A stretch of DNA of 39,161 nucleotides from a virus (lineage: Duplodnaviria > Caudoviricetes). Under the pieces are notes generated by a model that saw only the letters and a list, made by a program, of their open reading frames with translations, did no database searches and was not told where the DNA came from. Numbering within the stretch: position 1 is the stretch's first letter; every line of letters begins with the position of its first letter. The DNA is taken from IMG/VR virus record IMGVR_UViG_3300007988_000038, positions 1 to 39,161 of that record. One strand, given 5' to 3'. A program made the position numbers and the translations under genes. Positions 7,388 to 35,817 of the stretch are shown here, piece by piece.

Positions 7388-7948
7388 TTAGTTGATTTCC
7401 ACGGTTTCGTTCGATTCGTTACCGACACGGTTGTTGTAGGCAGCCATGAAGCCGGTGCGCAGGCGATCCTCGAGGGAAAGCTTGCGGTCATCCACATCGT
7501 GAGGTCTCACCCCGGCAGAACTGCGCATGGGGGGTTCGCTTGATGCTTTGGATTTGTGTTTTTCAGGCTCTTTTTCCGTTTCCGGCTGCGGCTTGGCATC
7601 CGCCTTGTTGCTTTTGGCCATCTTTTCATAGGCAGCCTCGGTGGCGGCAAAAGCGTCGTCCGACAGTTCAGCTAGACGCGTGAGTTCGTTGTCGCGATCC
7701 TCCCCGAAGTCCATGCCTTGCTTTTCAAGTTTTGAGATCAGTTTGTGAGCACGGGCTTTCGAAGCGGCAGCCTTCTGTTCGGCCTCCAGCTCCTGAATGC
7801 GCTTCTGAAGTTCGGCCACCTGAGCTTTCAACTGGCGGTTTTCCTTTTCCAGCTCGCTCCCGGGAGCCGGATTGTCTTCCTGCCGTTCCTGTTTTTTCTT
7901 AGCGGCGTCGGCGGACGACTCATCTGGTTTCTTGGTTTTTTCGTCCAT
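7388..7948 (-). CDS. Nested in-frame scaffold protein (internal start)
   Basis: AAAGGAGATCCAATT-ATG (MDEKTKK...) in frame, at the start of the coiled-coil region; 186 aa. Confidence 0.65.
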   Translation of the reverse strand: MDEKTKKPDESSADAAKKKQERQEDNPAPGSELEKENRQLKAQVAELQKRIQELEAEQKAAASKARAHKLISKLEKQGMDFGEDRDNELTRLAELSDDAFAATEAAYEKMAKSNKADAKPQPETEKEPEKHKSKASSEPPMRSSAGVRPHDVDDRKLSLEDRLRTGFMAAYNNRVGNESNETVEIN

Positions 7949-9775
7949 AATTGGATCTCCTTTGGGTTGGTGTGGGGCAGATGGGTCCTGAACCGACGCC
8001 ACCTGCAGAATGCGGGCATTTTCATCTGCCCCTTTGCGGTCCAGCAGGCCCAGGCCCGTAAAAGTCACGCCGTGAAGAATCTCGAAGACGGATTTTCCAT
8101 CGAGTTCACGGCCCTTAAATTTTCTGAGGTGGGTGCAGTAATCGGATTTGTTCTTGAAGCGCTTTTTACAAACGGAGCATTCACCTTCCTCGTAATCACA
8201 CTCCATCGATACCTGCGTGATGATGCCTCGTTTCATGAGCTTGTAGGCCAGCTGGGCATTTGGCGTGTCCCCGGTGTAGAGTTCACCGACACATTCGACC
8301 CGACCGCCGATTTCATCTTCCAGATAGTCAGCCGCCACAACTCCACCAACAATGTCACTGAACTCTTGAGAGTGCTGAAGGTCGACTTTCTTGTTGATTG
8401 CGGTCATGTGTCTTCCGGCCAGCTCCTCGGCTGTAAAATGGTCTCCATTTCGGTTGGTGCCGGTTCTGCAAAGAACGAAGGTGAACTGGGGATCGCCCGC
8501 CATACCTCCGCTCATCGCTTCAGCGTTCAGCCCGGAATGCTCATCGAGACACAGCTCCACCGGGATGGATGTGTGGATATTGGCTGCCGCAGCCATCGGA
8601 ACAGGTTTTGCCGACAGATCGGAGTCCGCATGAGACTGGCTTCCTTTCAGACAAACGAAAAGACGTTCTTTCGCGCTGGAAGCCTCCCCATGCTTGGAGG
8701 TGATCGAATACTTATGGTCCTTGGTCTTCATCCGGCTCTGACGTCCCAGACCGCCGATGATCTTTTTCATCTGCTGTTCGTTCGGATAGGCATGATCACG
8801 GTAAGAAATGAGCCAGTGCGGGATATGTGTGGCATTGCCGAGAAATTCCTGAAAGAAGTCGGAGGCGTTGCCCTTGGTGACAGTCACATGGCTGGTTTCA
8901 TAGTTTTTGACCTTGGTATCCGTTTTGATGGTCAGACCGTCCCAATACGTCATCAGTCCTTCGACGAAATGATAGGCTTTTTCATAATTGGTGGTCGAAA
9001 ACTCGGTTGCATAAGGCGGGTCAAAGTACGCGAGGTCAGCCTTCACCTTGGGAAGGATCTCGTTAACATCCCCGCGATAGGCTTTGTTCTCTTTGTCGTT
9101 GTCGAATATCAGGGCGTTGATCCGCTCGATATTGGCCTTCAGGCGTTTTTTGAATTCATCAGGTGTGTCCTGACGCTTGCCGTAATCAGTGGAGGACGAG
9201 AAGTGGCCGAATCCGCCTTTGCCGCTCATGCAGGTTTTCCCAAGAGCAAACAGAGCAATGTCCTTTTTATAGCCGGACAAGTCGTCACAATTGGCTCTCA
9301 GGGAATCGATAAGAGAGTGGACGCCTTTGGCAAAGAAAATCCCTTTAAAATTATCCTGTACAAAGGTTTTCGCTTTTGGGTTGTCAGCCAGCAGCTTGTC
9401 AATCTCGGCTTCGGAAAGTCGTGTCGAACTGTTCTCGACGATGGCTTTGGCTGCGTGATGACTGTAGCGAAGACGGTCATTGGCAAAAACTCGCAGCCCT
9501 TTGGATTTGTACATGTAAGCAACAACGGCCGACCCGGAAAAGGCATCCAGAACAGAGGAAACTCCGTCCGGGGTGTTACGCCAGATCCAGTCGACCAGCT
9601 TCTGTTTGCTGCCGATGTAGTTGGTGATGTACTTGGGGCGTTTCTCCGGGGGCTGCTCTTCAGGAGCCTTCTGTTCGGCTGCATTGGTCCCGATCTCGTC
9701 GGGATCGATTGCGAGCGCCGCATCTGCCTCAAGGAGGAACGCCAGCCTTTCCAGGTCAGTGGCAAACATTTCCAT
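7388..9775 (-). CDS. Fusion of D12-class DNA adenine methyltransferase, prohead protease and scaffold
   Basis: ATG 9775 with GGAG RBS. MTase motifs YIGSKQKL, VLDAFSGSA and AYFDPPY; then phage prohead-protease-like NRNGDHF...DLQH...VSMEC..CSVC..CTH..GADENARI; then a charged coiled-coil scaffold. No stop between the domains. Confidence 0.85.
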   Translation of the reverse strand: MEMFATDLERLAFLLEADAALAIDPDEIGTNAAEQKAPEEQPPEKRPKYITNYIGSKQKLVDWIWRNTPDGVSSVLDAFSGSAVVAYMYKSKGLRVFANDRLRYSHHAAKAIVENSSTRLSEAEIDKLLADNPKAKTFVQDNFKGIFFAKGVHSLIDSLRANCDDLSGYKKDIALFALGKTCMSGKGGFGHFSSSTDYGKRQDTPDEFKKRLKANIERINALIFDNDKENKAYRGDVNEILPKVKADLAYFDPPYATEFSTTNYEKAYHFVEGLMTYWDGLTIKTDTKVKNYETSHVTVTKGNASDFFQEFLGNATHIPHWLISYRDHAYPNEQQMKKIIGGLGRQSRMKTKDHKYSITSKHGEASSAKERLFVCLKGSQSHADSDLSAKPVPMAAAANIHTSIPVELCLDEHSGLNAEAMSGGMAGDPQFTFVLCRTGTNRNGDHFTAEELAGRHMTAINKKVDLQHSQEFSDIVGGVVAADYLEDEIGGRVECVGELYTGDTPNAQLAYKLMKRGIITQVSMECDYEEGECSVCKKRFKNKSDYCTHLRKFKGRELDGKSVFEILHGVTFTGLGLLDRKGADENARILQVASVQDPSAPHQPKGDPIMDEKTKKPDESSADAAKKKQERQEDNPAPGSELEKENRQLKAQVAELQKRIQELEAEQKAAASKARAHKLISKLEKQGMDFGEDRDNELTRLAELSDDAFAATEAAYEKMAKSNKADAKPQPETEKEPEKHKSKASSEPPMRSSAGVRPHDVDDRKLSLEDRLRTGFMAAYNNRVGNESNETVEIN

Positions 9776-9841
9776 TAAATTCTCCGGTTCAATCACTGTT
9801 ATTTGCCCCGATCGCACCGGGCGAGCGGGAGGTTTCAGCGA

Positions 9842-9888: not shown

Positions 9889-10242
9889 TTAGGCGGGAAT
9901 CTTCAAAGACCATAAAACGGCAAGACCACAGGCGGTTATGGACGGGTATTCCTCTGTCTCGACCACTTCGGAAAAAGCGCCGTCATAAGGAGATCGGCTC
10001 TGGCGATGATACTCCAGAAAATCATCAGGGAGTGTTGTAACTCCATTCTCAACCAGACGGTTGATGACCCAATCAGCCTGTTCATGACGATCCTGAATGT
10101 CATTTCGGCTGGAGTCCGGATAGAACATCTCAATATCGATGCCCGGGCCGGGACCTTGTACCCAAACACCTACAGGCAGATATTCCGGCACCGCCGCTTT
10201 CGGATCAACAAGGATGGAATCGATCATGTATCTCAGCTTCAT
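9889..10242 (-). CDS. Hypothetical acidic protein (candidate immunity protein for MuF cargo)
   Basis: 117 aa; ATGA-coupled to the upstream gene; second gene after muF. Confidence 0.65.
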   Translation of the reverse strand: MKLRYMIDSILVDPKAAVPEYLPVGVWVQGPGPGIDIEMFYPDSSRNDIQDRHEQADWVINRLVENGVTTLPDDFLEYHRQSRSPYDGAFSEVVETEEYPSITACGLAVLWSLKIPA

Positions 10243-10748
10243 TCCCAGCCCTCCGCAATTTTGATGTGTTCAGCAAGAATCTCTGAATCCATGCGCAGGA
10301 ACATATCCCGATTGTCTTTTCTGAATGCCAGCCATGTTTCCCATTGTTTTGCATGAGCCGGTTCGGAAACGGGCTCGATCATTTCAAGATGATAAATGCG
10401 GTCCAGATCGTCGGTCAGCTCCACAATCAGCCATGCGTTGATTTCACTTCCCTCTGATTGCGCTGTCAGCGCGTCATCTACGGACACATGAACGACCTTG
10501 ATTGTGTGGCTGTAATTGAAGCCTTCCTGATAGCCGAGTTCCTTCCATAACAGCCAGAAATCTGTTCGGATGATTTTCCCAGCGGCATCAAAATGCGGTG
10601 CAATCAGTGTCACCCTGAGTTCTGCGGAAATGGTGTCGATGAAGTTCTCACCGCCATGTTCCCGGATTTGCAACCGGCAGCCACGCTCATTGAACCAATG
10701 AAGCAGTTTCTGGATTCGGGCTTTTTCCGCTGCGATTATTTTCTCCAT
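10239..10748 (-). CDS. Hypothetical protein (candidate immunity protein for MuF cargo)
   Basis: Likely start MEKIIAAE at 10748, 1 bp after the muF stop, with GAGG RBS; the longer start in the ORF track overlaps muF. Confidence 0.65.
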   Translation of the reverse strand: MEKIIAAEKARIQKLLHWFNERGCRLQIREHGGENFIDTISAELRVTLIAPHFDAAGKIIRTDFWLLWKELGYQEGFNYSHTIKVVHVSVDDALTAQSEGSEINAWLIVELTDDLDRIYHLEMIEPVSEPAHAKQWETWLAFRKDNRDMFLRMDSEILAEHIKIAEGWE

Positions 10749-10749
10749 A

Positions 10750-13700
10750 TTATTTCCTCTCATTCCATGTGCTTGACGTATGAATGATGTCTTCCACCTT
10801 ACGGCCGTCAGGAAGTTTCTTGATCCCACGGGATGTGAAGCTCTTGATAATTTTCTGCCGTTCGGAAGCCGAATTGGCCACGATATATTCAATGTTGTCC
10901 AGCAGTGTTACTGAATACTTGAAGATGGTTTCATTGCTGCTTTTGCCCGAAAACTTTTTCCAGTCATCGATATTGTTTCCACGATTCTTCCGGACGTAAT
11001 CATCCACTACTTTGCCATAGGCGTCATGGCCGTAACTGATAGCATCCATGCGCCGTAGCATGCTCTTTTTGAAATAGAGCGCCGGAGAAGCATCACGACT
11101 TGGATTTTTCTGGATACGTGTGAAGAAATAACTGGCACCACCGCTTTGCATATCCGCTACCGGTGACATACCGCCTGGAGGGATACCCATTCGCATTTTT
11201 TCTACGGTGCTGGCCATTGCGCCATTGTTTTCAAGAATGGTTTCAACAAAATCAGACATACCTTCGCTATTGGTCAAGCGATGGACCAGAGAGTAATCCT
11301 TCATTTTCTTTTCCAGATCCTCCTCAGTGATATCGAACCGGTATTGGTGTCGATACCCACCTTTCAAACCACGATCGAGAAATCCGGCCTGATACGCTCC
11401 CATGGGGTCGTAATCCGGCAGCTTGGTAAGGTCCTCGACATTCAGTTCCTTCTGCCAGAAACCACGGAGCGTCTGCACCCGCTCATTTACGGATGCATCG
11501 CGATCGTCGAGCCTTTTTTGAAGCCGCTTGTATTCAGCGGTGTGATCCACTTTTCGAATGTACGCCATTTTTTCCAGATACATCTGCTCGGCATTTTCGG
11601 GGGAAGAAACCCGCGCATCTATCCCGAGTTTCTCCAGTTTGGTCATCAGGGCTTCGACCTTCTTGCCACTGGCATCACCGTCGACCACGATCTCCAGCTC
11701 GCCCCGCTGGGCATAAAGGTTTGAATTATCCCATGGGCGGTATTTCAGACGCGTGCCGTCATCAAATTCAGCGGTGAATTGAAGGCCGTCCTGCATCCTC
11801 GAGTCACGATTGAACATGGCATAATTATCGATGTCATCCATCTCGACGGTTATCTTGCCGCTGCTGATCCGCCTCTTGGTGTGAGTGACCTTGCCTTTAG
11901 TGACCTTGAAATCAGGCTTCTTGGGCTTGGCCGTTTTCGGCAGTTCTGGGAGATACTGCTCTAAGACACCGTTGGTTGCACGGTCCCAGTCGACCGCTTC
12001 TTTGATTTCATCCAGCCATTTGATATAGCCGTCAGCCATCTTTTTGATTTCCGGATCTTTGCTTCGGGCGAGCACAAGCAGTCGGGTTCTCAGTTGTTCG
12101 GCTTTTCCCAATTTTGTCCGGTTATAGTTCCCATCGCCGACATGGAAGTTTACGTTTTTCACTGCATCCAGAATGGTCGGGAAAAAGGTGTCTTCCTCCA
12201 GGGGCTGGCCTTTTTTAATTTCAACAAGGTCCAGCTGTTCCCGAAGCAGGTCCGTGATTTTAGAATCCGTATCCGGCCGGATCTTCATTTTAACAACTGT
12301 GCGCTGCTTACCTTTGAAGGATTCTGTAAATATGAGGGCGTTCTGATCTTCGACATCACCACTGTCAAATGGCAGGGTTTTTCCCTGCCATCCAAGTTTT
12401 CCGGCATCATCGATGATTCTTTCATCCGCTTCCTGCAGCAGCTTCTTTATCCCGGGCTTGGCCTGCAGTGACGAGAACCTGAAGTCTTTCCGGCCTAAAA
12501 CCTCTCCGTAGTATCGCTCGAAATCATTCCGCAGATCATGTTTTCGTTGAAGTGTCTGCTCATAGAATTTATCCAGCCCGATTTTGTCTTTTCCAAAGCG
12601 CCCCTCGGCATATGGCCGGATGATATCGAGATAAGCCTCGTCGGATATTTTTTCGACTTCCTGAATGTATTTCAGGGAGCCCTGAGGATCGAAGTTGACC
12701 TTGCCTTCCTTGGCCGCCCTGAAGACCTTGTTGTAAAAAGGCTCCTCTTCGCCAAAGGCGCTGTTGGGATGATAATCCAGAGAAAGGCGATCTTTCCCGA
12801 GATGCTTGAAAGCCTGCCCCTTGTCAATGCCATAGACATGACCATTTCTTCCCCGGATAAACTGCTTTGAGTGTCCATCATGATTAGCGACAAGCCAGTC
12901 GATGACATGCTCACGCTGTAGCTGTTCGATCTCAACGGTGGTCAGATTCTCCGGCAGTATGTTTTTGAAATCGATTTCTGACTTCAGATCCGTTCGCCAC
13001 TTTTGGATGGAACCTGTTCTGCCGTTCAGCTGGATGGTCCTCACTTCGATTGCGTCCGGGTCAATCAGCCGACCGATCTTGTATGCGGCTTCTTCTCCTT
13101 GGGCGATAAAATTGTCCTTGGAGTTGCTGGCTGGTTTGAACAGCCATTTGTCGCCATTTTCATCGGTCCAAAACTCTTTTTCATGTGCTCCGCCGACATT
13201 CGCCTTGCCGGACTTATTGAATTTCCCGGCTGCGGATTTTTCATTCCATTTCTGATCGGCGCTTTCAAACTCAGAGCCTTTCTGGACAAAGGACGGCGGT
13301 TTGGTTTTGGGTTCAACAGGTGGCTTAGGTGGTTCTTTTTTTTCCTTTACAGGAGATGGCTTCGCCTTTTTGCCACCGTGCTTTTCAGCCCATTTCTGCC
13401 ATTTGCTCTCGATATTCGATTGCGCTTCTCCGATCTTTCCCGGATCGGTTTCGGTAAAGAGCGTGACGAGATCGTCCTTGCTTGCCCATTGCCAGTGTTT
13501 CAGCTGTGTCTCCTTGGCAATGGATTTGAGTTCCGACGATTTGAGTTTGGCAATCTGATCCTGAAAAAGCTGCTTTTTCAGAGCAATTTCCTTGGCGTGC
13601 CCGACAAGCAGTTCCTGAGGCAGATCTTTGGCCGATGCCAGAGCTTTTTCTGCATCGGAGATCTGGCTGATAAAATTGCTGTAATCCAGCGGTGATTCCG

Positions 13701-15321
13701 GAAGCTGAACTCCGGCCGCAGCCTTTTCGACCAGCTCTTTCTGTTTTTTCACCAGGAGCTGTTTTGCTTCATCCGCCGCTATCTTTTTGGCTGATTCAGC
13801 CAGATCCGTTCCGGCTTTTTTCTGCAGTGCATCAACGAGCTGTTGTTTATTCTTCAGGATGCCGATTCCGTACTGCTTTTTCTTTGCCAGCAGTTCCTTT
13901 CCTTTCAGGGATGTGTGGTCAATTCCCGGCTCGAGCTTGTCCAGCAATTTGATGGTCTCCTGTTTGGTCATATTCAGGGAAATGCCGTTGTTTTTGGCCA
14001 TTTCTTTAAGCTGGGATACCGGCATACCCTCGAGTCCTTCCACCTGTGGAAGTTTGGACATCTGCTGGGCAATGAGTTTTGCCTGTTTGAGTTCAGCCTG
14101 CTTTTGAGCCAACAGCCCGATCAGGTCTTCCTTTGTCCGGAGCAGACCGATTTTGTGTTCCTTGAGCTTTGCCTTCAGTCCGGCCCCTGAAAGCGTGCTG
14201 TGGTCAATGCCCGGTTCTGCCTGATCGAGTAGTTTGATGAAGTCGGCTTTGGTGCGGGCAATGGAAATGCCGTTCTCTTTTGAGAGGGTCTGGAGCTGCT
14301 TTACGGTGAGTGCTGTAAGGTCATCGGCGCTTCCGTTCTCAAATGCCTCCTTCAGTTTGATGCTCTCTTTTGCCTGCGCATCCGCCATTCCTTCCAACGC
14401 ATGCGGGGGCAGTATACAGGCATCGCCCTGTGAAGCCTTGGGTGCCGCCTGTGCAGACAGATCGGAACCACAAATGCTCATGGGCCACGCGACAATATTT
14501 GTACAACGGCAATGGGGATGCGCTGGCTGTTGCGGGAATTTATCGATGGGAAATGTCTTACCGTCGAGAGGACCACATACCGGACAGGTTCTCTCGTCAT
14601 TCATGGCCATCCATTCAAGCTTCTGAACGCCGACGCGCTCATGAAATTTAAGCCGCCCCATGTTGTGTGCCCGTAACACCTCAGTCCGGGCAATCATTTC
14701 CATGCGGTACTGAGCCTTGCTGAACACTCGGCTGCCAGCCTGCCTGAAGGAGTCCTTATCGATGATGACCTTGCCAAGGTCGCGGACAATATCATCCGCA
14801 CCTTTACCCGTGGCTATACCGCTCAGGATCGTTCTCTTTATCCCATCCGACAGTTCACGGTGAACATCCCCGGCAAGCGTCAGATTGTATTGCGTCATGA
14901 AGTCGAGGGCATTGGTATCGACTATGGAGAACACCTTGGTGGCCAGTTTATCGATACCTTCAGGCTTCAGGTCGGCATAGAATGGCAGTGACGCGGATGT
15001 CAGTTCGGTAATGCCCTGAGCGATGCCGCCCTTGAAGGCGTCCTTGGTGCTTTTGCGGAAAACAAGCGTCTGGTTCCGCTTTAACTGGCGCAAAACATCA
15101 TCCAGCTCGCCTTGCAGCTTTTCCAGACCTTTCAAAGCTGCCAGCTTGTTGTCCGGCAAAGAGCCGAGAGTGCGATATTTCAAAATGGCCTGCGCAACTT
15201 CCTGTTCAGCCTTGTTGAGAGACTGAGTCAGTTGCGCTGTAATGGAATCGTTGTAGCGATTTCGGGATTTCAGGCTCTTGAGTGTTGCTGCCTGAATGCG
15301 TTCTTTGAGATCAGAAGGCAT
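10750..15321 (-). CDS. MuF (SPP1 gp7-like) minor head protein with HeH repeats, HipA/PI3K-like kinase domain and C-terminal enzyme-like domain
   Basis: MuF motifs IARTEVLRAHN...W...DERTCPVC...PAHPHCRC; repeated LTVKQLQTLSKENGI..TKADFIKLL units; kinase-like GGAHEK..WLFKP..EEAAY..DWLVANHDGH..IDKG. Confidence 0.85.
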   Translation of the reverse strand: MPSDLKERIQAATLKSLKSRNRYNDSITAQLTQSLNKAEQEVAQAILKYRTLGSLPDNKLAALKGLEKLQGELDDVLRQLKRNQTLVFRKSTKDAFKGGIAQGITELTSASLPFYADLKPEGIDKLATKVFSIVDTNALDFMTQYNLTLAGDVHRELSDGIKRTILSGIATGKGADDIVRDLGKVIIDKDSFRQAGSRVFSKAQYRMEMIARTEVLRAHNMGRLKFHERVGVQKLEWMAMNDERTCPVCGPLDGKTFPIDKFPQQPAHPHCRCTNIVAWPMSICGSDLSAQAAPKASQGDACILPPHALEGMADAQAKESIKLKEAFENGSADDLTALTVKQLQTLSKENGISIARTKADFIKLLDQAEPGIDHSTLSGAGLKAKLKEHKIGLLRTKEDLIGLLAQKQAELKQAKLIAQQMSKLPQVEGLEGMPVSQLKEMAKNNGISLNMTKQETIKLLDKLEPGIDHTSLKGKELLAKKKQYGIGILKNKQQLVDALQKKAGTDLAESAKKIAADEAKQLLVKKQKELVEKAAAGVQLPESPLDYSNFISQISDAEKALASAKDLPQELLVGHAKEIALKKQLFQDQIAKLKSSELKSIAKETQLKHWQWASKDDLVTLFTETDPGKIGEAQSNIESKWQKWAEKHGGKKAKPSPVKEKKEPPKPPVEPKTKPPSFVQKGSEFESADQKWNEKSAAGKFNKSGKANVGGAHEKEFWTDENGDKWLFKPASNSKDNFIAQGEEAAYKIGRLIDPDAIEVRTIQLNGRTGSIQKWRTDLKSEIDFKNILPENLTTVEIEQLQREHVIDWLVANHDGHSKQFIRGRNGHVYGIDKGQAFKHLGKDRLSLDYHPNSAFGEEEPFYNKVFRAAKEGKVNFDPQGSLKYIQEVEKISDEAYLDIIRPYAEGRFGKDKIGLDKFYEQTLQRKHDLRNDFERYYGEVLGRKDFRFSSLQAKPGIKKLLQEADERIIDDAGKLGWQGKTLPFDSGDVEDQNALIFTESFKGKQRTVVKMKIRPDTDSKITDLLREQLDLVEIKKGQPLEEDTFFPTILDAVKNVNFHVGDGNYNRTKLGKAEQLRTRLLVLARSKDPEIKKMADGYIKWLDEIKEAVDWDRATNGVLEQYLPELPKTAKPKKPDFKVTKGKVTHTKRRISSGKITVEMDDIDNYAMFNRDSRMQDGLQFTAEFDDGTRLKYRPWDNSNLYAQRGELEIVVDGDASGKKVEALMTKLEKLGIDARVSSPENAEQMYLEKMAYIRKVDHTAEYKRLQKRLDDRDASVNERVQTLRGFWQKELNVEDLTKLPDYDPMGAYQAGFLDRGLKGGYRHQYRFDITEEDLEKKMKDYSLVHRLTNSEGMSDFVETILENNGAMASTVEKMRMGIPPGGMSPVADMQSGGASYFFTRIQKNPSRDASPALYFKKSMLRRMDAISYGHDAYGKVVDDYVRKNRGNNIDDWKKFSGKSSNETIFKYSVTLLDNIEYIVANSASERQKIIKSFTSRGIKKLPDGRKVEDIIHTSSTWNERK

Positions 15322-15323
15322 GA

Positions 15324-16829
15324 TCAGGATTCCCGGCGGTCAATAAATCGGCAGGCCGGGGAATCGAAGGTGCGCTCGGTGTTGTGTACTCGGCAGCGGT
15401 TGGAATCTGGATTGAAGTGGCTGCATTCATCGCATAAGGAGGTTGCCGCCGTTGCTTCCATTTCCTCGGAATAGTGATGGTGGGCCTCGGTATCGAGATC
15501 GTTACCGTCAGCGGGAATACCGAGCATCTTTCTGGCGCTGGGAACACTCATGATTCCCGACACCACCATATCGACGATCGGCTTCACCTGTTTTTCATCC
15601 ATCAGGTCGATGTTCTTACGCTCGGTCTCACGATTTGCGGCTTCGATGTCCGGGTCCAGATCCATCTTGAGCTGCAAGCTGGAACGGCTGATCAGTTTGC
15701 GATCATACAGCTCGATGAGCAGTTTCTTGAAATCAACGGCATCACTCGGATCAAGGTCATTGAAGATGAATTGCAGGGACTTGTCGCTGTGGCCTTTCAG
15801 TTCCATCCAGTCATCGAAGATCCAGTCGAGCAGTTTTCGTGCGGCCTGTTTGATCTCCCGGATCATGACCATCATTTTCTGCATGCTCACAGAAGCTGTG
15901 GCAAAGTTAGGACCGTCTCCGGTCACCAAGGATCGTGAGAGGCCGAGAGCCACCACAATGTCTTCTTTGACCTCCTTGACCTTGTCCTCGACGTTGAGTA
16001 CCTGGCCATCCGTTCCGTGGGTTTCCACATTCACGTAAAACGGAACCACGAGGCCGCTCTTCATGTCCATCTTGTTGACCATGTCGCGGACCTGTTCCAG
16101 CATCCGCTGGTCGGGCATCACCATCTTTTGACCGAACGCGCCGCCCACTTTGAGGAGTCGGAAGGGAGTCGCCCAGCGCTTTGCAATGGCCTGTTCGGCG
16201 CGACGGTAATCACGCAGCAGTTCAATGGACTGAAACGCGGGCAGTACCAGTGAGTTTCCTCGTGGTGAGAAACCCGGGGCGTCCCATTTCAAATGGATGA
16301 CCTGATCAACCGGAAGGTCGATCGGATCACTGGCAGACCCTGAATCCTCAGCATATTGCATGGCTTCGATAAGTTCGCCCTGAGCATATTTCACCTTCAC
16401 GGAAACCGGATTGACACATACCACTTCCTCGATGTCCTGACCGGAAGCTGCATATCGCTTGAATCCAACAGCATCTCCTTTGACCAGCAGTTGGAGGATC
16501 ATATCTTTTATGAATTCGGAGACATCGAGTCTCCATGCGGCACTGACCGCATCGTTTTTCAGCGTTTCATCATCGCTGGTCATTTTGATTTCATCTCCAA
16601 CCGCAAACGTGCGCCATGAGTTGACACAGTTCTTTACCAGCGGCTCTTCGACGTAGTATTCCCACGCCTTTCTGGCTCGCTCCTCCCATGTGGCCGGGAC
16701 GGCATCCGTCGCGTTGACCTTGCTGAAAGCTGACGCATCGAGGGCAGCGGCAGCGGCCATGGGGACAATAGCGTATCCATTGGATTCGTTTTCCGGCTGC
16801 TCGGTATCTGGCTGGGCGTTTGTATCCAC
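15324..16829 (-). CDS. Portal protein (with C-terminal Cys/His cluster)
   Basis: Between terL and muF; YYVEEPLVKNCVN, VIHLK...RGNS, IVVALG patterns; 501 aa; GTG start with GAGG RBS. Confidence 0.85.
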   Translation of the reverse strand: MDTNAQPDTEQPENESNGYAIVPMAAAAALDASAFSKVNATDAVPATWEERARKAWEYYVEEPLVKNCVNSWRTFAVGDEIKMTSDDETLKNDAVSAAWRLDVSEFIKDMILQLLVKGDAVGFKRYAASGQDIEEVVCVNPVSVKVKYAQGELIEAMQYAEDSGSASDPIDLPVDQVIHLKWDAPGFSPRGNSLVLPAFQSIELLRDYRRAEQAIAKRWATPFRLLKVGGAFGQKMVMPDQRMLEQVRDMVNKMDMKSGLVVPFYVNVETHGTDGQVLNVEDKVKEVKEDIVVALGLSRSLVTGDGPNFATASVSMQKMMVMIREIKQAARKLLDWIFDDWMELKGHSDKSLQFIFNDLDPSDAVDFKKLLIELYDRKLISRSSLQLKMDLDPDIEAANRETERKNIDLMDEKQVKPIVDMVVSGIMSVPSARKMLGIPADGNDLDTEAHHHYSEEMEATAATSLCDECSHFNPDSNRCRVHNTERTFDSPACRFIDRRES

Positions 16830-19384: not shown

Positions 19385-19756
19385 ATGACAGAGATGACCA
19401 TTCATGAAACCACTGCCGCCTTCATCAACCATCTTCGGGACAACGGCAAAAAGGAGCGCACGCTCTACACCTACCGGAAGGACCTCGACCTCATCGAGGG
19501 ATACTTCGGCAAGAACAAGATGCTTCAGGAGTTGAGAATCACTCAGGTTGGGAAGTTCCTCAAATGCGATACGCTTCTGAAACTCGGAAATGGTAATGCC
19601 CGGGCCGAGAGAACCGTTGCCAAGACCATCCGGGTCTTTCGGATGATGCTTGTCTGGGCCAAGGAGTCCGGTTTTATCGATGAGCTCCCGCTGCCCAAAA
19701 GCACCCCGATGGGACACAGCAAGCAGACGGAGGTGACCGATGCCGAACAGCAGTGA
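19385..19756 (+). CDS. Stand-alone integrase core-binding (SAM-like) domain protein
   Basis: FINHLRDNGKKERTLYTYRKDL...ERTVAKTIRVFRMMLVWA; no catalytic domain. Confidence 0.75.
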   Translation: MTEMTIHETTAAFINHLRDNGKKERTLYTYRKDLDLIEGYFGKNKMLQELRITQVGKFLKCDTLLKLGNGNARAERTVAKTIRVFRMMLVWAKESGFIDELPLPKSTPMGHSKQTEVTDAEQQ

Positions 19757-20648
19757 TCGACTGGAAGCGGCCATAGAGCGATTCTGTGCCCACTTGTCGG
19801 CCGAAAACAAAGCAGCAGGGACAGTGACCGCATACCGGCGGGATCTGCGACTGGTGGCCTGTGTGGCCGAATCCTTCCAGCTCGGACTCTGCTGCCAAGA
19901 TGTGACACCCGGTCTGCTGGATCGGGCTCTATCCTCACCGCAGCTTTTGACCACGAACTCGGGAACAAGGTCACCGGCATCGATCCACCGTTTGAAAGCG
20001 GCGGTCCGTTCATTCTTTGCATGGACAACGGATGCCGGGCTTACATTTGAAAACCCGGCCCGATCCGTTCGCATGAAAAGGCTGGCGCAGAAGCCGCCGG
20101 TATTCCTGACGGCTTCTGAAAAGAAGGTACTGCTGAAAGAGGTGAAAAGTCGCGTGGGGTTTTCAGACATGAGGGATCGGGTAATGATCGAAGTCCTGCT
20201 CGGAACCGGCATCCGTATCGGTGAGCTGGAATCTCTGGACACGGATGATATTGACCTCGATGCCAAGCATCTGAGAGTCAGAGCCAAGGGGAATGTGGTG
20301 CAGGTCAAGTTCATAAAAACCGACCTCCGCATATTACTGAAAAGGTATCTGAAAGAACGATCCCGGCAAAGCACAGTACAATGCAGCCCACTGTTTCTTT
20401 CCAATAGAGGAACACGTCTTTGCCAGCGGCAGATTGCCAACCGGATAGCCTTGTGGCTGAAGAAGGCTGGTATTGAAAAGAACCTGACTCCGCATGGCCT
20501 GCGGCATACCTTTGCAACCCACCTTTACGGGGCCACCAGTGACCTGCTTGTCGTGCAGAGGGCGCTGGGGCACCGGGATATTTCAACGACTCAAATCTAC
20601 ACCCACCTTGTTGATGGGCAACTCGAGGATGCCCTTGAAAGGCTGTAA
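19740..20648 (+). CDS. XerC/D-family tyrosine recombinase
   Basis: Full catalytic set: GIRIGE (R), AKGN (K), HGLRH, LGH, TTQIY (Y). Confidence 0.93.
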   Translation: MPNSSDRLEAAIERFCAHLSAENKAAGTVTAYRRDLRLVACVAESFQLGLCCQDVTPGLLDRALSSPQLLTTNSGTRSPASIHRLKAAVRSFFAWTTDAGLTFENPARSVRMKRLAQKPPVFLTASEKKVLLKEVKSRVGFSDMRDRVMIEVLLGTGIRIGELESLDTDDIDLDAKHLRVRAKGNVVQVKFIKTDLRILLKRYLKERSRQSTVQCSPLFLSNRGTRLCQRQIANRIALWLKKAGIEKNLTPHGLRHTFATHLYGATSDLLVVQRALGHRDISTTQIYTHLVDGQLEDALERL

Positions 20649-33309: not shown

Positions 33310-33729
33310 TCAGCAGAATCCAAAGAACGTTCGCTGCTCACTCCAGTCGAGCGGGAATGTTTTCACCAGCTTTGACAGTGAGAGTCCGCTGGGCTCTTCA
33401 CCGTTAATGATGGCTTCGACAATGTCCGGGGCGAGAGTGGTCAGCTTCAGGGTTCTGGCCACGTAGGATGAATCCACATCGAGATCCCTTGCCAGTTCGC
33501 TGATAGACTTTATCTCGCCGCTCTCAAGGATGTCCGCCCATGAATAGGCTCTGGCCAGTGACTGAACGATGGCTGTTTGAACCGTTTCCGGCATCCCTTC
33601 ATTTTCACCGTCCAGCGTATCTGGAGTGAACACCATTTTCCGGCCGCGCATTCTTCGTATGAACATGGGGATATGGATGTGCAGATTCCCGCTGTCAGAG
33701 AGTTTGATAGTTGGTTTAATTTTTTTCAT
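33310..33729 (-). CDS. Serine-recombinase-associated HTH protein
   Basis: SISELARDLDVDSSYVARTLKLTTLAPDIVEAI..G...PLDWSEQ; coupled to the recombinase stop. Confidence 0.75.
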   Translation of the reverse strand: MKKIKPTIKLSDSGNLHIHIPMFIRRMRGRKMVFTPDTLDGENEGMPETVQTAIVQSLARAYSWADILESGEIKSISELARDLDVDSSYVARTLKLTTLAPDIVEAIINGEEPSGLSLSKLVKTFPLDWSEQRTFFGFC

Positions 33730-35312
33730 CAGCTGTTACCCCTTTCCCTGACTTCACAGGCCAGACCGGCCAGCTCGGTGACAAGATTTGTGAGGCCGTT
33801 TGTTTTCAGCTCCATATCGATTCCCGTTTCTCTGATCTCGATGGTTTCAACCAAAAGTTGGATCAGCCGGTTGCGCTCGAGCGGGAACAGGTCCTCCCAG
33901 AAGGTTTCCACGCTCTGGAATGCCTCGGATACATCACCCTCTGATATCAGCTCTGTATCGATGACCTTCAATCGGGCTGATACATTGGTGAGCTGCTTGG
34001 TCAAATCAACCGCCTGCTGATTGACCAAGGGCAGTCGACTGTTCCGGCCAGGATCATCATTGTCAGGCGACATAAGTTTCAATGCCTCCTGTCTCACATT
34101 CTGAAGCGACTGTTCGAGTTCTTTTTTCTGGGCCTGCAGGCGCTGCCGCTCTTCAGCCTCTATCTCTCTGGCGGCAAAGTAGGTTTTAGCCACCAAGGTC
34201 GGTGTTCTGAACACGGCACCGAGTTGCTCGAGCACCACGGACTCGATGTCTCCGGCTGGAACTCGCTTCAATGGACATCGGCTGACAGCACGTTTGGTGT
34301 CCTTTTCACATATATAATAGGAGTAGCGCCGGTCGCCTTTGTTGGTATAGGTGATGCCCATGGCGCTATCGCAGTGTCCGCATCGGATTACACCACTCAA
34401 AGGGGAGACCATTTTCACCCGGGCCTTGCTCATCTTGGTTCGATTGTTTTCAGATAGAAGGGCCTGAACCTTGTCCCATGTATTTTGGTCAACCAGCGCT
34501 TCATGTTCAGCCGGGTAGTTGTTCTCTTTGTAAGCAATCTCCCCGATATAGAGCCTGTTGTTGAGAAGGCGGTACACCTGAGCCGTATTCCATTCGGTTC
34601 CGACCCGTTCTTTTTTCTTCTTGGTGGTCCATGATTTGGTTTTGTATCCTTGCTCGTTGAGTTCCTGCGCCACCTTCTTGGCCGATCCCACCTGCGTGTA
34701 TCGCCTGAATATGAGTTTCACCAGCGGGGCCTCGCTCTGGTTGATCAGCAGTTTCTTGTTTTCACGGTCCACGTCATAACCGAGAACAGCAGGTCCGCCA
34801 CAATATTTTCCACGGCGTTTTGCGGCGGCAACCTTGTCCCGGATACGTTCACCGATGACCTCCCGTTCGTACTGGGCAAAGGTGATCAGGATTCCCAGAA
34901 ACATTCGGCCCGTCGAGTCTGTGGTACCGAAATGCTGGGTAACTGATACGAAGCTCACTTCCTTTTCGTTAAAGAGCTCGATCATCTTCATGAAATCCAG
35001 CAGTGAGCGGGACAGTCGATCGACTTTGTAAACGACGATGACATCGATCTTACCGTCATCGATATCAACCAACAGCCTTTGAAGTGCCGGACGTTCCATG
35101 CTCCCGCCGGAAAATCCGCCGTCATCGTATCGGTAAGGGATGGCTCTCCAGCCCCGAAGCTTCTGACTTTCAATGTAGGCTTCGGCCGCCTCTCTCTGTG
35201 CGTCGAGTGAATTGAATTCCTGCTCCAAGCCTTCCTCGTGACTTTTTCTGGTATAGATGGCGCACCGAAGCGTCTTGCATTGGCCATTCTGGGTATTGTT
35301 GTTATTAAGCAT
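33729..35312 (-). CDS. Large serine recombinase
   Basis: CAIYTRKS, SLDAQRE, DDGGFSGG..ERPALQ, YKVDRLSRS; recombinase domain; zinc ribbon CGHC...YYIC. Confidence 0.93.
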   Translation of the reverse strand: MLNNNNTQNGQCKTLRCAIYTRKSHEEGLEQEFNSLDAQREAAEAYIESQKLRGWRAIPYRYDDGGFSGGSMERPALQRLLVDIDDGKIDVIVVYKVDRLSRSLLDFMKMIELFNEKEVSFVSVTQHFGTTDSTGRMFLGILITFAQYEREVIGERIRDKVAAAKRRGKYCGGPAVLGYDVDRENKKLLINQSEAPLVKLIFRRYTQVGSAKKVAQELNEQGYKTKSWTTKKKKERVGTEWNTAQVYRLLNNRLYIGEIAYKENNYPAEHEALVDQNTWDKVQALLSENNRTKMSKARVKMVSPLSGVIRCGHCDSAMGITYTNKGDRRYSYYICEKDTKRAVSRCPLKRVPAGDIESVVLEQLGAVFRTPTLVAKTYFAAREIEAEERQRLQAQKKELEQSLQNVRQEALKLMSPDNDDPGRNSRLPLVNQQAVDLTKQLTNVSARLKVIDTELISEGDVSEAFQSVETFWEDLFPLERNRLIQLLVETIEIRETGIDMELKTNGLTNLVTELAGLACEVRERGNS

Positions 35313-35817
35313 TCGGACCACCTTCCTTTTTTCTATGACTGCTCTTCAGACCGAAAAAGATCTTTCCATTCCAACGGGTGCCGGTAATTTCCCTTGCTAT
35401 GGCGCTTAAGGATCTGAAAATGCGGCCGTCATACTCGAAGCCGTTTTCCCGGGCGATCACTTCATAGCGATGGTCGTTCCAGATCCGGACAAAGCGAGTG
35501 CCCGACAGGATAGCCTCCTGTGATTTCCGTTCCTCCGGGATCTTGCGGATTACGGTTGCAACCGGATCGGTTTCGGAAATTTTCTTTAGGTGTTTTTTTG
35601 CCTGCTCCGACAGACCTCCATAAAAGAGTTCCTGAATACGGTGCGCCAGCCGTTTCACCAGAAACTGCTTCTTGTACTGGGGTGGTTCGGTTCCATAAAG
35701 ATCCAGCCATTTCTCTTTGAGCTGATCAAGGCTCATACTCTGGAGCGTGGCCAATTGCCTCAACACCGAGGTCTTGGTCGGCTCCATGTTTTTGTTTTTC
35801 AAGTCATTCATTTTCAA
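35305..35817 (-). CDS. DUF2924 family protein
   Basis: LAHRIQELFYGGLS...GTRFVRIW...SLSAIAREITGTRWNG..FFGL. Confidence 0.88.
   Translation of the reverse strand: MKMNDLKNKNMEPTKTSVLRQLATLQSMSLDQLKEKWLDLYGTEPPQYKKQFLVKRLAHRIQELFYGGLSEQAKKHLKKISETDPVATVIRKIPEERKSQEAILSGTRFVRIWNDHRYEVIARENGFEYDGRIFRSLSAIAREITGTRWNGKIFFGLKSSHRKKEGGPNA

What the first reader, a model, noticed from the sequence alone, without database searches (positions are those of the whole stretch)
10750..15321. 1523-aa multi-domain MuF: head-targeting domain, HeH repeats, kinase-like domain and possible ART-like domain
Seen: MuF motifs end near aa 275 and are followed by about 1250 extra aa. These include a HipA/PI3-4K-like kinase signature (GGAHEK, WLFKP, EEAAY, DWLVANHDGH, IDKG; about 13200-12800), an unassigned middle region, and a C-terminal domain (LVH...ILENNGAMAST...D..SGGASYFFTR; about 11290-10760) whose pattern suggests an ADP-ribosyltransferase fold (low confidence). 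Known: MuF proteins can carry C-terminal polymorphic toxin domains and are virion components. Inference: a multi-enzyme effector injected to modify host or defence proteins.
Basis: partly seen in the sequence, partly recalled or inferred. Interest (0 to 1): 0.85.

Follow-up and report, generated by a model that had tools for sequence, protein, structure and literature searches.

The report
Capsid-borne kinase plus DarT-like toxin
A temperate phage's head-assembly gene carries two predicted enzymes, a kinase and a DarT-like ADP-ribosyltransferase, followed by two small genes, one of them predicted to plug the kinase; the protein likely rides in the virion and would be injected to modify host proteins and DNA, and the same cassette recurs in many unstudied phages.

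Summary
Confirmed and sharpened. ORF 10750-15321(-) encodes 1523 aa between portal and prohead-protease genes of a temperate myovirus: MuF (aa 160-275), about five HeH-like repeats, a kinase (aa 684-945; PI4KII/CtkA/HipA-like fold, Z 15.3/13.5, catalytic K729, D815, D833 in 110/110 homologues), an unassigned beta domain, and a C-terminal ADP-ribosyltransferase fold whose best solved alpha/beta matches in two models are DarT DNA-modifying toxins (Z 7.2-8.4; E1464 in 131/131). It is not a Pfam DarT member and seems to lack DarT's catalytic Arg and Met. Kinase-beta-ART is a fixed cassette (121 of 123 long relatives; 1010 clusters at 50% identity match its last 563 aa), while cargo nearer the N-terminus varies. 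Two small genes follow in 157 of 159 loci; the 117-aa product is predicted to cover the kinase active site (ipSAE 0.86, best control 0.00), i.e. a likely immunity protein. Best reading: a virion-delivered two-enzyme effector/toxin with two immunity proteins, the ART likely acting on nucleic acid. Packaging, activity and substrates are untested. New variant of the known MuF toxin/polyvalent-effector kind; I found no description of this cassette in my literature searches.

The parts
15324..16829 (-). portal protein gene, immediately upstream
   Evidence: PHROG portal E 7.7e-76
10750..15321 (-). MuF-kinase-beta-ART polyprotein gene, 1523 aa
14497..14844 (-). MuF domain, aa 160-275, with C246/C249/H268/C271/C273
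   Evidence: PF04233 E 2.4e-17; these residues in 108-110 of 110 homologues
13807..14319 (-). four HeH/Rho_N/SAP-like repeats, aa ~335-505, predicted nucleic-acid binding
   Evidence: weak Pfam and PHROG hits; repeat units visible
13447..13554 (-). fifth HeH-like unit, aa ~590-625
   Evidence: HeH PF12949 E 0.013, below cut-off
13282..13371 (-). Pro/Lys-rich variable linker, aa 651-680
   Evidence: median identity 0.23 against 0.65 for the kinase
12487..13272 (-). kinase domain, aa ~684-945, PI4KII/CtkA/Fam20/HipA-like; K729, N813-H814-D815, H817, D833
   Evidence: VIA Z 15.3 (4hnd, rmsd 3.7, 232 aligned), 13.5 (CtkA 3akj, rmsd 3.5, 202), 10.0 (HipA 4pu3); K729, H814, D815, H817, D833 in 110 of 110
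11617..12429 (-). unassigned beta-sheet domain, aa ~965-1235, with a three-helix insert (aa ~1040-1114); conserved G980, E991, D992, K1013
   Evidence: model pLDDT 94; only weak matches, SycN/YscB-type chaperone Z 5.9, phosphoglucomutase Z 5.8; conservation
11332..11604 (-). helical linker and hairpin leading into the ART, aa ~1240-1330
10753..11337 (-). DarT-like ADP-ribosyltransferase fold, aa 1329-1523; H1347, T1401, D1433, E1464
   Evidence: VIA Z 8.4 DarT1 8baq (rmsd 4.0, 164 aligned), 7.9, 7.7, 7.2 for three more DarTs; Foldseek prob 0.95-0.96, E 0.07-0.1; conservation
10239..10748 (-). ds1, 169 aa, no family; inferred ART immunity protein (by elimination only)
   Evidence: linked in 157 of 159 loci; no Pfam family shared by more than 2 of 42 members
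9889..10242 (-). ds2, 117 aa, no family; predicted kinase-blocking immunity protein
   Evidence: ipSAE 0.86, best control 0.00, interface on Gly loop, D815, H817, D833; linked in 157 of 159 loci
7388..9817 (-). adenine methyltransferase fused to prohead protease/scaffold, next gene of the head module
   Evidence: MethyltransfD12 E 7.7e-24; Peptidase_S78 E 0.016, below cut-off

Best explanation
The gene encodes a MuF head protein fused to a predicted kinase and a predicted DarT-like ADP-ribosyltransferase, and it likely works as a virion-delivered two-enzyme effector held in check by the two small genes behind it. Steps: (1) made with the head genes (gene order shown; expression inferred); (2) MuF loads a few copies into the capsid and the HeH-like repeats likely hold it on DNA (inferred from MuF literature); (3) on infection it would enter with the genome; (4) the kinase would phosphorylate host proteins, likely DNA-bound ones reached through the HeH tether (by analogy to T7 kinase), and the ART would use NAD+ to ADP-ribosylate a base of single-stranded DNA, stalling the recipient's replication and defences (inferred from fold); (5) cells that carry the prophage are likely protected: ds2 is predicted to cap the kinase active site, ds1 is inferred to block the ART. 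Net effect: a head start in, or killing of, non-immune hosts.
For: Position between portal and protease genes of a contractile-tailed temperate phage. Intact catalytic residues in both domains across 110 and 131 relatives. DarT structures are the top alpha/beta matches in two models and two programs; BFVD matches are uncharacterised giant-virus, iridovirus and betabaculovirus proteins, the virus groups in which PMC9503650 (section 3.7.1 read) places a DarT-related ART family. ds1+ds2 follow in 157 of 159 loci with room and ds1 diverges faster than the big protein (about 57% against 72%). ds2-kinase complex: score 0.86, best of 3 controls 0.00, mark reached by 116 of 157 solved and 2 of 215 mismatched pairs, runs agree in at least 94% of contacts, partner pLDDT at least 89. 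Characterised MuF toxins Bxa and Apk2 each have two adjacent immunity genes (PMC11699363, passages). T7 kinase is steered to nucleic-acid-binding defence proteins by a DNA-binding domain (PMC13645617, passages).
Against: Z 7-8.4 is middling and Foldseek E is only 0.07-0.1; no sequence-level match to DarT (PF14487 did not hit the cassette in 30 genomes that carry it; hhalign E 0.04-0.07 on the last strand only). By eye alignment to 8baq, DarT's essential R52 is replaced by an invariant Asp (D1390) and the M71 helix is missing, so substrate and chemistry may differ. No NADAR or macrodomain eraser lies next door. An injected DNA-modifying enzyme could damage the phage's own replication, and ds1/ds2 sit in a late-gene block with no promoter signal above chance (2 found, 2.4 expected). 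The kinase's closest structures include lipid kinases (PI4KII, MavQ), so a non-protein substrate is open. The gene is not broken more often per kb than portal or terminase in prophages (10 of 71 over 4.6 kb against 3 of 69 over 1.4 kb and 5 of 61 over 1.5 kb). Nothing shows it in virions.
Confidence: 0.5

Rival explanations
1. Same delivery and immunity, but the ART domain modifies proteins or RNA, or simply destroys NAD+ or makes a small ADP-ribose product, rather than modifying DNA.
For: DarT's R52 and M71 seem absent and other residues are invariant instead (S1386, D1390, D1426, R1402). In mycobacterial (pro)phages the same kinase family is fused to a VIP2/Alt-type ART in place of this one (McProf gp54, Onyinye gp16), which suggests the slot tolerates a protein-modifying ART. 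Bxa modifies proteins (PMC11699363, passages).
Against: Among 48,161 representative chains the only ART-fold entries in the top 50 are four DarTs. The invariant D1433 falls, by motif alignment, on DarT1 N104, the base-reading residue.
Confidence: 0.25
2. The enzymes act in the producing or lysogenic cell, not in the next host: a toxin-immunity module parked on a head gene that aborts superinfection or shuts the host down late in the lytic cycle; the prohead protease may cut the extension off before packaging.
For: DarT is a known anti-phage toxin (PMC11543638, passages); the kinase has weak hits to PADLOC PDC-M03A (E 3e-4); a 170-kDa cargo is large; L063 carries the cassette without a detected MuF.
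Against: MuF is present in 28 of 30 distant relatives scanned and the fusion is kept across many host phyla; a late gene is unlikely to be expressed in lysogens (own knowledge).
Confidence: 0.15
3. The ART marks the phage's own DNA at packaging or entry to shield it from restriction, working with the methyltransferase fused to the prohead protease two genes on.
For: A methyltransferase-protease-scaffold fusion follows in the same module; HeH-like repeats would hold the enzyme on phage DNA.
Against: DarTs act on single-stranded DNA and block replication (PMC11543638, passages); a self-protective enzyme would not obviously need two linked small genes; the cassette also occurs in loci with other neighbours.
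Confidence: 0.08

Closest known systems
MuF polymorphic toxins (Zhang 2012 PMC3482391; Jamet 2017 PMC5576092; Bxa and Apk2, PMC11699363)
   Same: MuF N-terminus, head-module position in a temperate phage, enzymatic C-terminal extension, two small downstream genes.
   Different: Two enzyme domains in tandem; the C-terminal cassette is the constant part and the variable cargo sits between MuF and kinase; 'kinase' has 0 occurrences in the main text of PMC5576092; the ART is DarT-like, whereas PMC9503650 names Alt/VIP2 and N4 families as the MuF-fused ARTs.
DarT1/DarT2 DNA ADP-ribosyltransferases (DarTG toxin-antitoxin systems)
   Same: Fold (Z 7.2-8.4); beta-1 His, beta-2 Ser/Thr position, catalytic Glu and a polar residue at the base-reading position, by motif alignment.
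   Different: No PF14487 match; catalytic Arg and Met apparently absent; Asp instead of Asn/His at the base-reading site; no NADAR or DarG neighbour; carried by a phage head protein instead of a host defence operon.
CtkA / HipA-HipT / PI4K type II atypical kinases; HipS inhibition of HipT (PMC10627512)
   Same: Fold and catalytic Lys, Asp, Asp; a small partner predicted to sit over the Gly-rich loop and active site.
   Different: ds2 shows no profile similarity to HipA N-terminal/HipS domains or DUF3037; no HipB; domain of a virion protein.
Polyvalent proteins and T4 Alt; T7 kinase (PMC5512222, PMC13645617)
   Same: Multi-enzyme phage proteins proposed or shown to modify the host early; kinase coupled to a DNA-binding part.
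   Different: The polyvalent-protein kinase lacks the C-terminal subdomain, this one keeps it; T7K is an expressed early protein of another family; Alt is an R-S-E protein ART.
Mycobacterial prophage McProf gp54 and Pseudanabaena phage Pan1 gp15
   Same: McProf gp54 has MuF plus the same kinase family (35% identity); Pan1 gp15 has MuF plus the same ART module (30%).
   Different: McProf ends in a VIP2-type ART; Pan1 lacks the kinase; neither is characterised for these domains in what I read.

Membership tests
MuF polymorphic toxin | N-terminal MuF domain | tested here: met
   PF04233 E 2.4e-17
MuF polymorphic toxin | gene in the packaging/head module of a temperate phage | tested here: met
   terminase-portal-MuF-protease-capsid order, serine recombinase and LexA-like repressor in the window; copies in bacterial chromosomes
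MuF polymorphic toxin | small downstream immunity gene(s) | tested here: met
   157 of 159 loci; ds2 predicted on the kinase active site; protection itself not measured
MuF polymorphic toxin | C-terminal domain exchanged among close relatives | tested here: not met
   the 120 listed homologues down to 46% identity keep the cassette; exchange of the ART class is seen only in distant kinase-bearing proteins
MuF polymorphic toxin | toxicity of the extension; presence in virions | not testable with these tools
   needs expression assay and virion proteomics
DarT (PF14487) | ART fold of DarT type | tested here: met
   Z 8.4/7.9/7.7/7.2, 148-164 aligned, rmsd 3.8-4.5; Foldseek prob 0.95-0.96
DarT (PF14487) | sequence match to the family profile | tested here: not met
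   no hit; PF14487 found 5 true DarTs but not the cassette in 30 carrier genomes
DarT (PF14487) | catalytic glutamate (E152/E160) | tested here: met
   E1464 in 131 of 131, aligned to the QAE glutamate by hhalign, weakly
DarT (PF14487) | catalytic R52, D54, M71 | tested here: inconclusive
   not found by eye alignment to the 8baq sequence; no coordinate superposition was available
DarT (PF14487) | adjacent NADAR or macrodomain antitoxin | tested here: not met
   ds1 and ds2 alignments match no such Pfam family
DarT (PF14487) | ADP-ribosylation of ssDNA bases | not testable with these tools
   needs biochemistry
HipA/CtkA/PI3-4K-like kinase superfamily | fold and catalytic Lys, catalytic Asp, metal-binding Asp | tested here: met
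   HipA_C E 3.4e-4, under cut-off
HipBA/HipBST toxin-antitoxin system | HipB or HipS-type antitoxin | tested here: inconclusive
   ds2 against 10 Couple_hipA domains: probability 0.2%; shallow profiles, ds2 fold not searched
Polyvalent-protein kinase of Iyer 2017 | loss of the C-terminal kinase subdomain | tested here: not met
   helical C-lobe present and aligned over 200-232 residues; definition from PMC5512222 passage

The most novel reading that the evidence does not exclude
Phages have turned the DarT anti-phage chemistry around: a large, unrecognised family of virion proteins injects a DNA ADP-ribosyltransferase of new base specificity (Asp at the base-reading site, no catalytic Arg) together with a DNA-tethered kinase, so that host DNA and DNA-bound defence proteins are modified at the moment of entry, each enzyme with its own new immunity protein.
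Probability: 0.3. Interest if true: 0.9.

Novelty: new variant of a known kind. Interest (0 to 1): 0.72.

Why it matters
What MuF-fused enzymes do in infection is still open (PMC11699363 says so), and DNA ADP-ribosylation by DarT is known as a host weapon against phages. A phage-delivered DarT-like enzyme, conserved in hundreds of protein clusters and annotated only as 'minor capsid protein', would be a new use of that chemistry and perhaps a new DNA modification. The predicted kinase-immunity pair gives a ready handle for cloning and testing in laboratory E. coli, and a cultured lysogen (Desulfatitalea alkaliphila, 92% identical) and a cultured phage (Pan1) make packaging testable.

Tried and rejected
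Sequence and profile searches of the PDB gave nothing relevant for the cassette. ESM Atlas gave only unnamed clusters for the ART, plus DUF5846 in 25% of one viral cluster, and nothing usable for ds2. Resemblances I saw by eye were not upheld: ds2 with DUF3037, with HipS/Couple_hipA, with McProf gp55; ds1 with Pan1 gp16; 30 shuffle tests of ds1/ds2 profiles against 10 downstream genes of distant loci gave at best 11, 21, 21 and 23 of 500 shuffles reaching the real score, not significant after 30 tests. The idea that the middle slot holds swapped cargo instead of the kinase (first HMM found it in 59 of 124) fell once the profile was iterated: 121 of 123. The middle beta domain was not folded alone, so its lack of a match is weak. 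No excess of broken copies. RNA runs held 5-17% of words; contigs were sparse and cannot rank genes. No promoter signal before ds1. No stand-alone ART family emerged: 93 short hits, mostly on short contigs or marked partial; an ART-region profile hit 1 of 401 genomes in G001's phylum (the centre itself) and 8 of 401 in G003's. Whether Pan1 gp15 was seen by virion mass spectrometry is shown only in a figure I cannot read; the supplement lists it without that mark. The metagenome scan failed for lack of a conserved pattern. ds1 was neither folded nor docked.
Full report
Setting. The window is a 39,161-base linear virus record, estimated 66% complete. It holds a contractile-tail and head module, replication genes, a serine recombinase and a LexA-like repressor: a temperate myovirus. 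The ORF in question (10750-15321, minus strand, 1523 aa) lies between the portal gene and, after two small genes, a methyltransferase-prohead protease fusion and the major capsid gene. Pfam names only MuF (aa 160-275); PHROG 6577, of unknown function, covers aa 38-1365.

Anatomy. Aa 335-505 and 590-625 hold about five short helical repeats with weak Rho_N, SAP and HeH scores (2 of 5 pieces scored, both under cut-off); 13 of 120 listed homologues carry Rho_N or SAP annotations. This part was not folded. An AlphaFold model of aa 680-1523 (116 sequences, pLDDT 90) gave three parts. The first is an atypical kinase: PI4K II alpha Z 15.3 (rmsd 3.7, 232 aligned), CtkA 13.5, Fam20 13.1, MavQ 12.2, HipA 10.0. 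K729, H814, D815, H817 and D833 are present in 110 of 110 near-full-length homologues. The last part matched E. coli DarT1 bound to NAD+ (Z 8.1). A second model of aa 961-1523 from a deeper alignment (78 sequences, pLDDT 94) repeated this: DarT1 Z 8.4 (164 aligned, rmsd 4.0), Thermus DarT 7.9, Thermosipho DarTG 7.7, M. tuberculosis DarT 7.2; most other top rows were generic helical bundles matching a three-helix insert. Foldseek ranked Thermus DarT with probability 0.95-0.96 but E only 0.07-0.1. In BFVD the best matches were uncharacterised proteins of giant viruses, an iridovirus and betabaculoviruses; PMC9503650 (section 3.7.1 read) describes a DarT-related ART family in such arthropod viruses, which I take as consistent but did not test by name. 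The tool warns that Z of 7-8 can be a common arrangement; the case rests on four separate DarT entries heading the alpha/beta list over most of the domain. The middle beta domain (aa 965-1235) has only weak matches (Z 5.9 or less) and stays unassigned.

ART active site. In 131 sequences down to 28% identity, S1386, D1390, G1394, D1426, D1433, E1464 and G1506 are invariant; H1347 is in 126, R1377 in 129, T1401 in 123, R1402 in 130. With the 8baq sequence printed and the mutagenesis in PMC11543638 (passages), my alignment by eye puts H1347 on H17, T1401 on S63, D1433 on the base-reading N104 and E1464 on the catalytic E152; hhalign supports only the last, weakly (E 0.04-0.07). DarT's essential R52 falls on D1390 and the M71 helix has no counterpart. 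PF14487 does not recognise the domain. So it likely works like a DarT-type NAD+-using transferase, but it is not a member of the Pfam family, and its substrate is inferred.

Family. 271 proteins of 837-2666 aa match aa 680-1523 (120 listed, 46-94% identical). The last 563 aa match 1010 clusters at 50% identity with E up to 1e-3, 360 at 1e-30 (only the best 150 were seen). Among these, 123 proteins of 1000 aa or more had the ART; an iterated profile found the kinase upstream in 121, mostly 360-460 aa before it. The part in front varies: of 30 distant members scanned, 28 have MuF, 8 a NUDIX domain, 1 a zeta toxin, 1 an HNH. Chromosomal copies occur, by record titles, in Desulfobacterota, Gamma- and Alphaproteobacteria, Verrucomicrobiota, Acidobacteriota, Armatimonadota, Nitrospirota, Hydrogenedentota, Chloroflexota and Planctomycetota (80 of 129 matches shown). 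Among 50,697 GenBank phages 13 records match in part: Pan1 gp15 has MuF and the ART module without kinase; mycobacterial (pro)phage proteins have the kinase with a VIP2-type ART instead. Kinase plus ART on a head protein is thus a recurring design with an exchangeable ART class.

Immunity genes. Two genes follow with 1-base gap and 4-base overlap: ds1 (169 aa) and ds2 (117 aa). Both are present in 157 of 159 loci with at least 1.1 kb downstream; the two exceptions have interrupted MuF genes; many of these loci are near-duplicates. Neither has a Pfam family. One complex prediction, kinase (aa 694-959) with ds2, scored 0.86 against 0.00 for the best of three controls; that mark was reached by 116 of 157 solved and 2 of 215 mismatched pairs; runs agreed in at least 94% of contacts, partner pLDDT at least 89. 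The interface covers the Gly-rich loop (aa 707-715), D815, H817, D833 and aa 853-859, and uses ds2's conserved W58, R62, L63, F75, Y78, H79, S84, Y86. This supports, and does not show, an active-site-blocking immunity protein, similar in effect to HipS on HipT (PMC10627512, passages) though without detectable homology. ds1 as ART immunity is by elimination only.

Mechanism. Shown: gene order, domains by fold prediction, intact catalytic residues, linkage. Predicted: ds2 caps the kinase. Inferred: packaging through MuF and ejection with DNA (PMC5512222, PMC5576092, PMC9503650, passages), DNA tethering by the repeats, phosphorylation of DNA-bound host proteins by analogy to T7 kinase (PMC13645617, passages), ADP-ribosylation of ssDNA by analogy to DarT. 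I put this whole chain at 0.5. Main rivals: ART acts on protein, RNA or NAD+ alone (0.25); the enzymes act in the producing cell (0.15); self-marking of phage DNA (0.08). Against the chain: middling fold scores, missing DarT residues, lipid kinases among the closest kinase structures, no promoter signal for ds1/ds2, no excess of broken copies, no usable expression data, and the risk that a DNA-modifying enzyme harms the phage itself.

Prior description. Ten literature searches (open-access library only) found MuF toxins, MuF-fused Alt/VIP2 and N4 ARTs, MuF-fused NUDIX and zeta domains, and a truncated polyvalent-protein kinase, but no MuF protein with a CtkA/PI4K-like kinase and a DarT-like ART. 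I read passages of PMC5512222, PMC3482391, PMC5576092, PMC11543638, PMC11699363, PMC13645617, PMC10627512, PMC9837993 (plus its supplement search), passages and one section of PMC9503650, and the abstract of PMC12945103. Supplements of PMC9503650 and PMC5512222, which list architectures, were not read and may contain this family. Earlier findings of this scan held nothing on the cassette and one note on the neighbouring methyltransferase-protease fusion.

Verdict. Real feature; new variant of the MuF toxin/polyvalent effector kind, with an undescribed DarT-like ART family and a predicted new kinase-immunity pair. Interest 0.72.

Noticed in passing
window 7388-9817 (-): Adenine methyltransferase fused in frame to prohead protease and scaffold; conserved beside the MuF gene; in L059 the fusion has two methyltransferase-like units (1227 aa). 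A second likely capsid-loaded DNA enzyme in the same head module.
   Followed up: partly
L119, L120, L121: Copies 92-93% identical to the window sit in a Gammaproteobacteria MAG, a Geopsychrobacteraceae MAG and Desulfatitalea alkaliphila; 70-73% identical copies in Ectothiorhodospira, Pontiellaceae and many Desulfobacterota: a prophage lineage that seems to cross phyla (MAG binning not checked).
   Followed up: no
L156, L169, L170, L186: Four related prophage copies of the gene in one Bryobacterales chromosome (OZ252029.1).
   Followed up: no
L013 4610-6270: An insertion of about 1.65 kb that looks like an IS3-family element splits the kinase just after its catalytic loop; ds1 and ds2 remain intact.
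   Followed up: partly
L063 4227-10475; L234 3097-8895; L238/L239: Very long proteins (1932-2745 aa) with the same kinase and a divergent ART-like end but other N-termini; L063 has Asn for H1347; L238/L239 seem to lack the catalytic Glu (by eye).
   Followed up: partly
L233/L237 5875-6654: Stand-alone 259-aa member of the kinase family in 130-180 kb viral contigs.
   Followed up: no
L211 1056-11991 (Mycobacterium phage Phrappuccino): A 2030-aa protein starts with this kinase, next to an annotated virion structural protein and a glycohydrolase.
   Followed up: no
window 19740-20648 (+) and 33729-35321 (-): Both a tyrosine recombinase on the opposite strand inside the late region and a large serine recombinase beside DUF2924 and a LexA-like repressor.
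   Followed up: no
L028 13437-17600; L059 3235-4002: Extra DNA inserted between ds2 and the methyltransferase gene (about 4 kb, L028) and between portal and MuF (L059).
   Followed up: no
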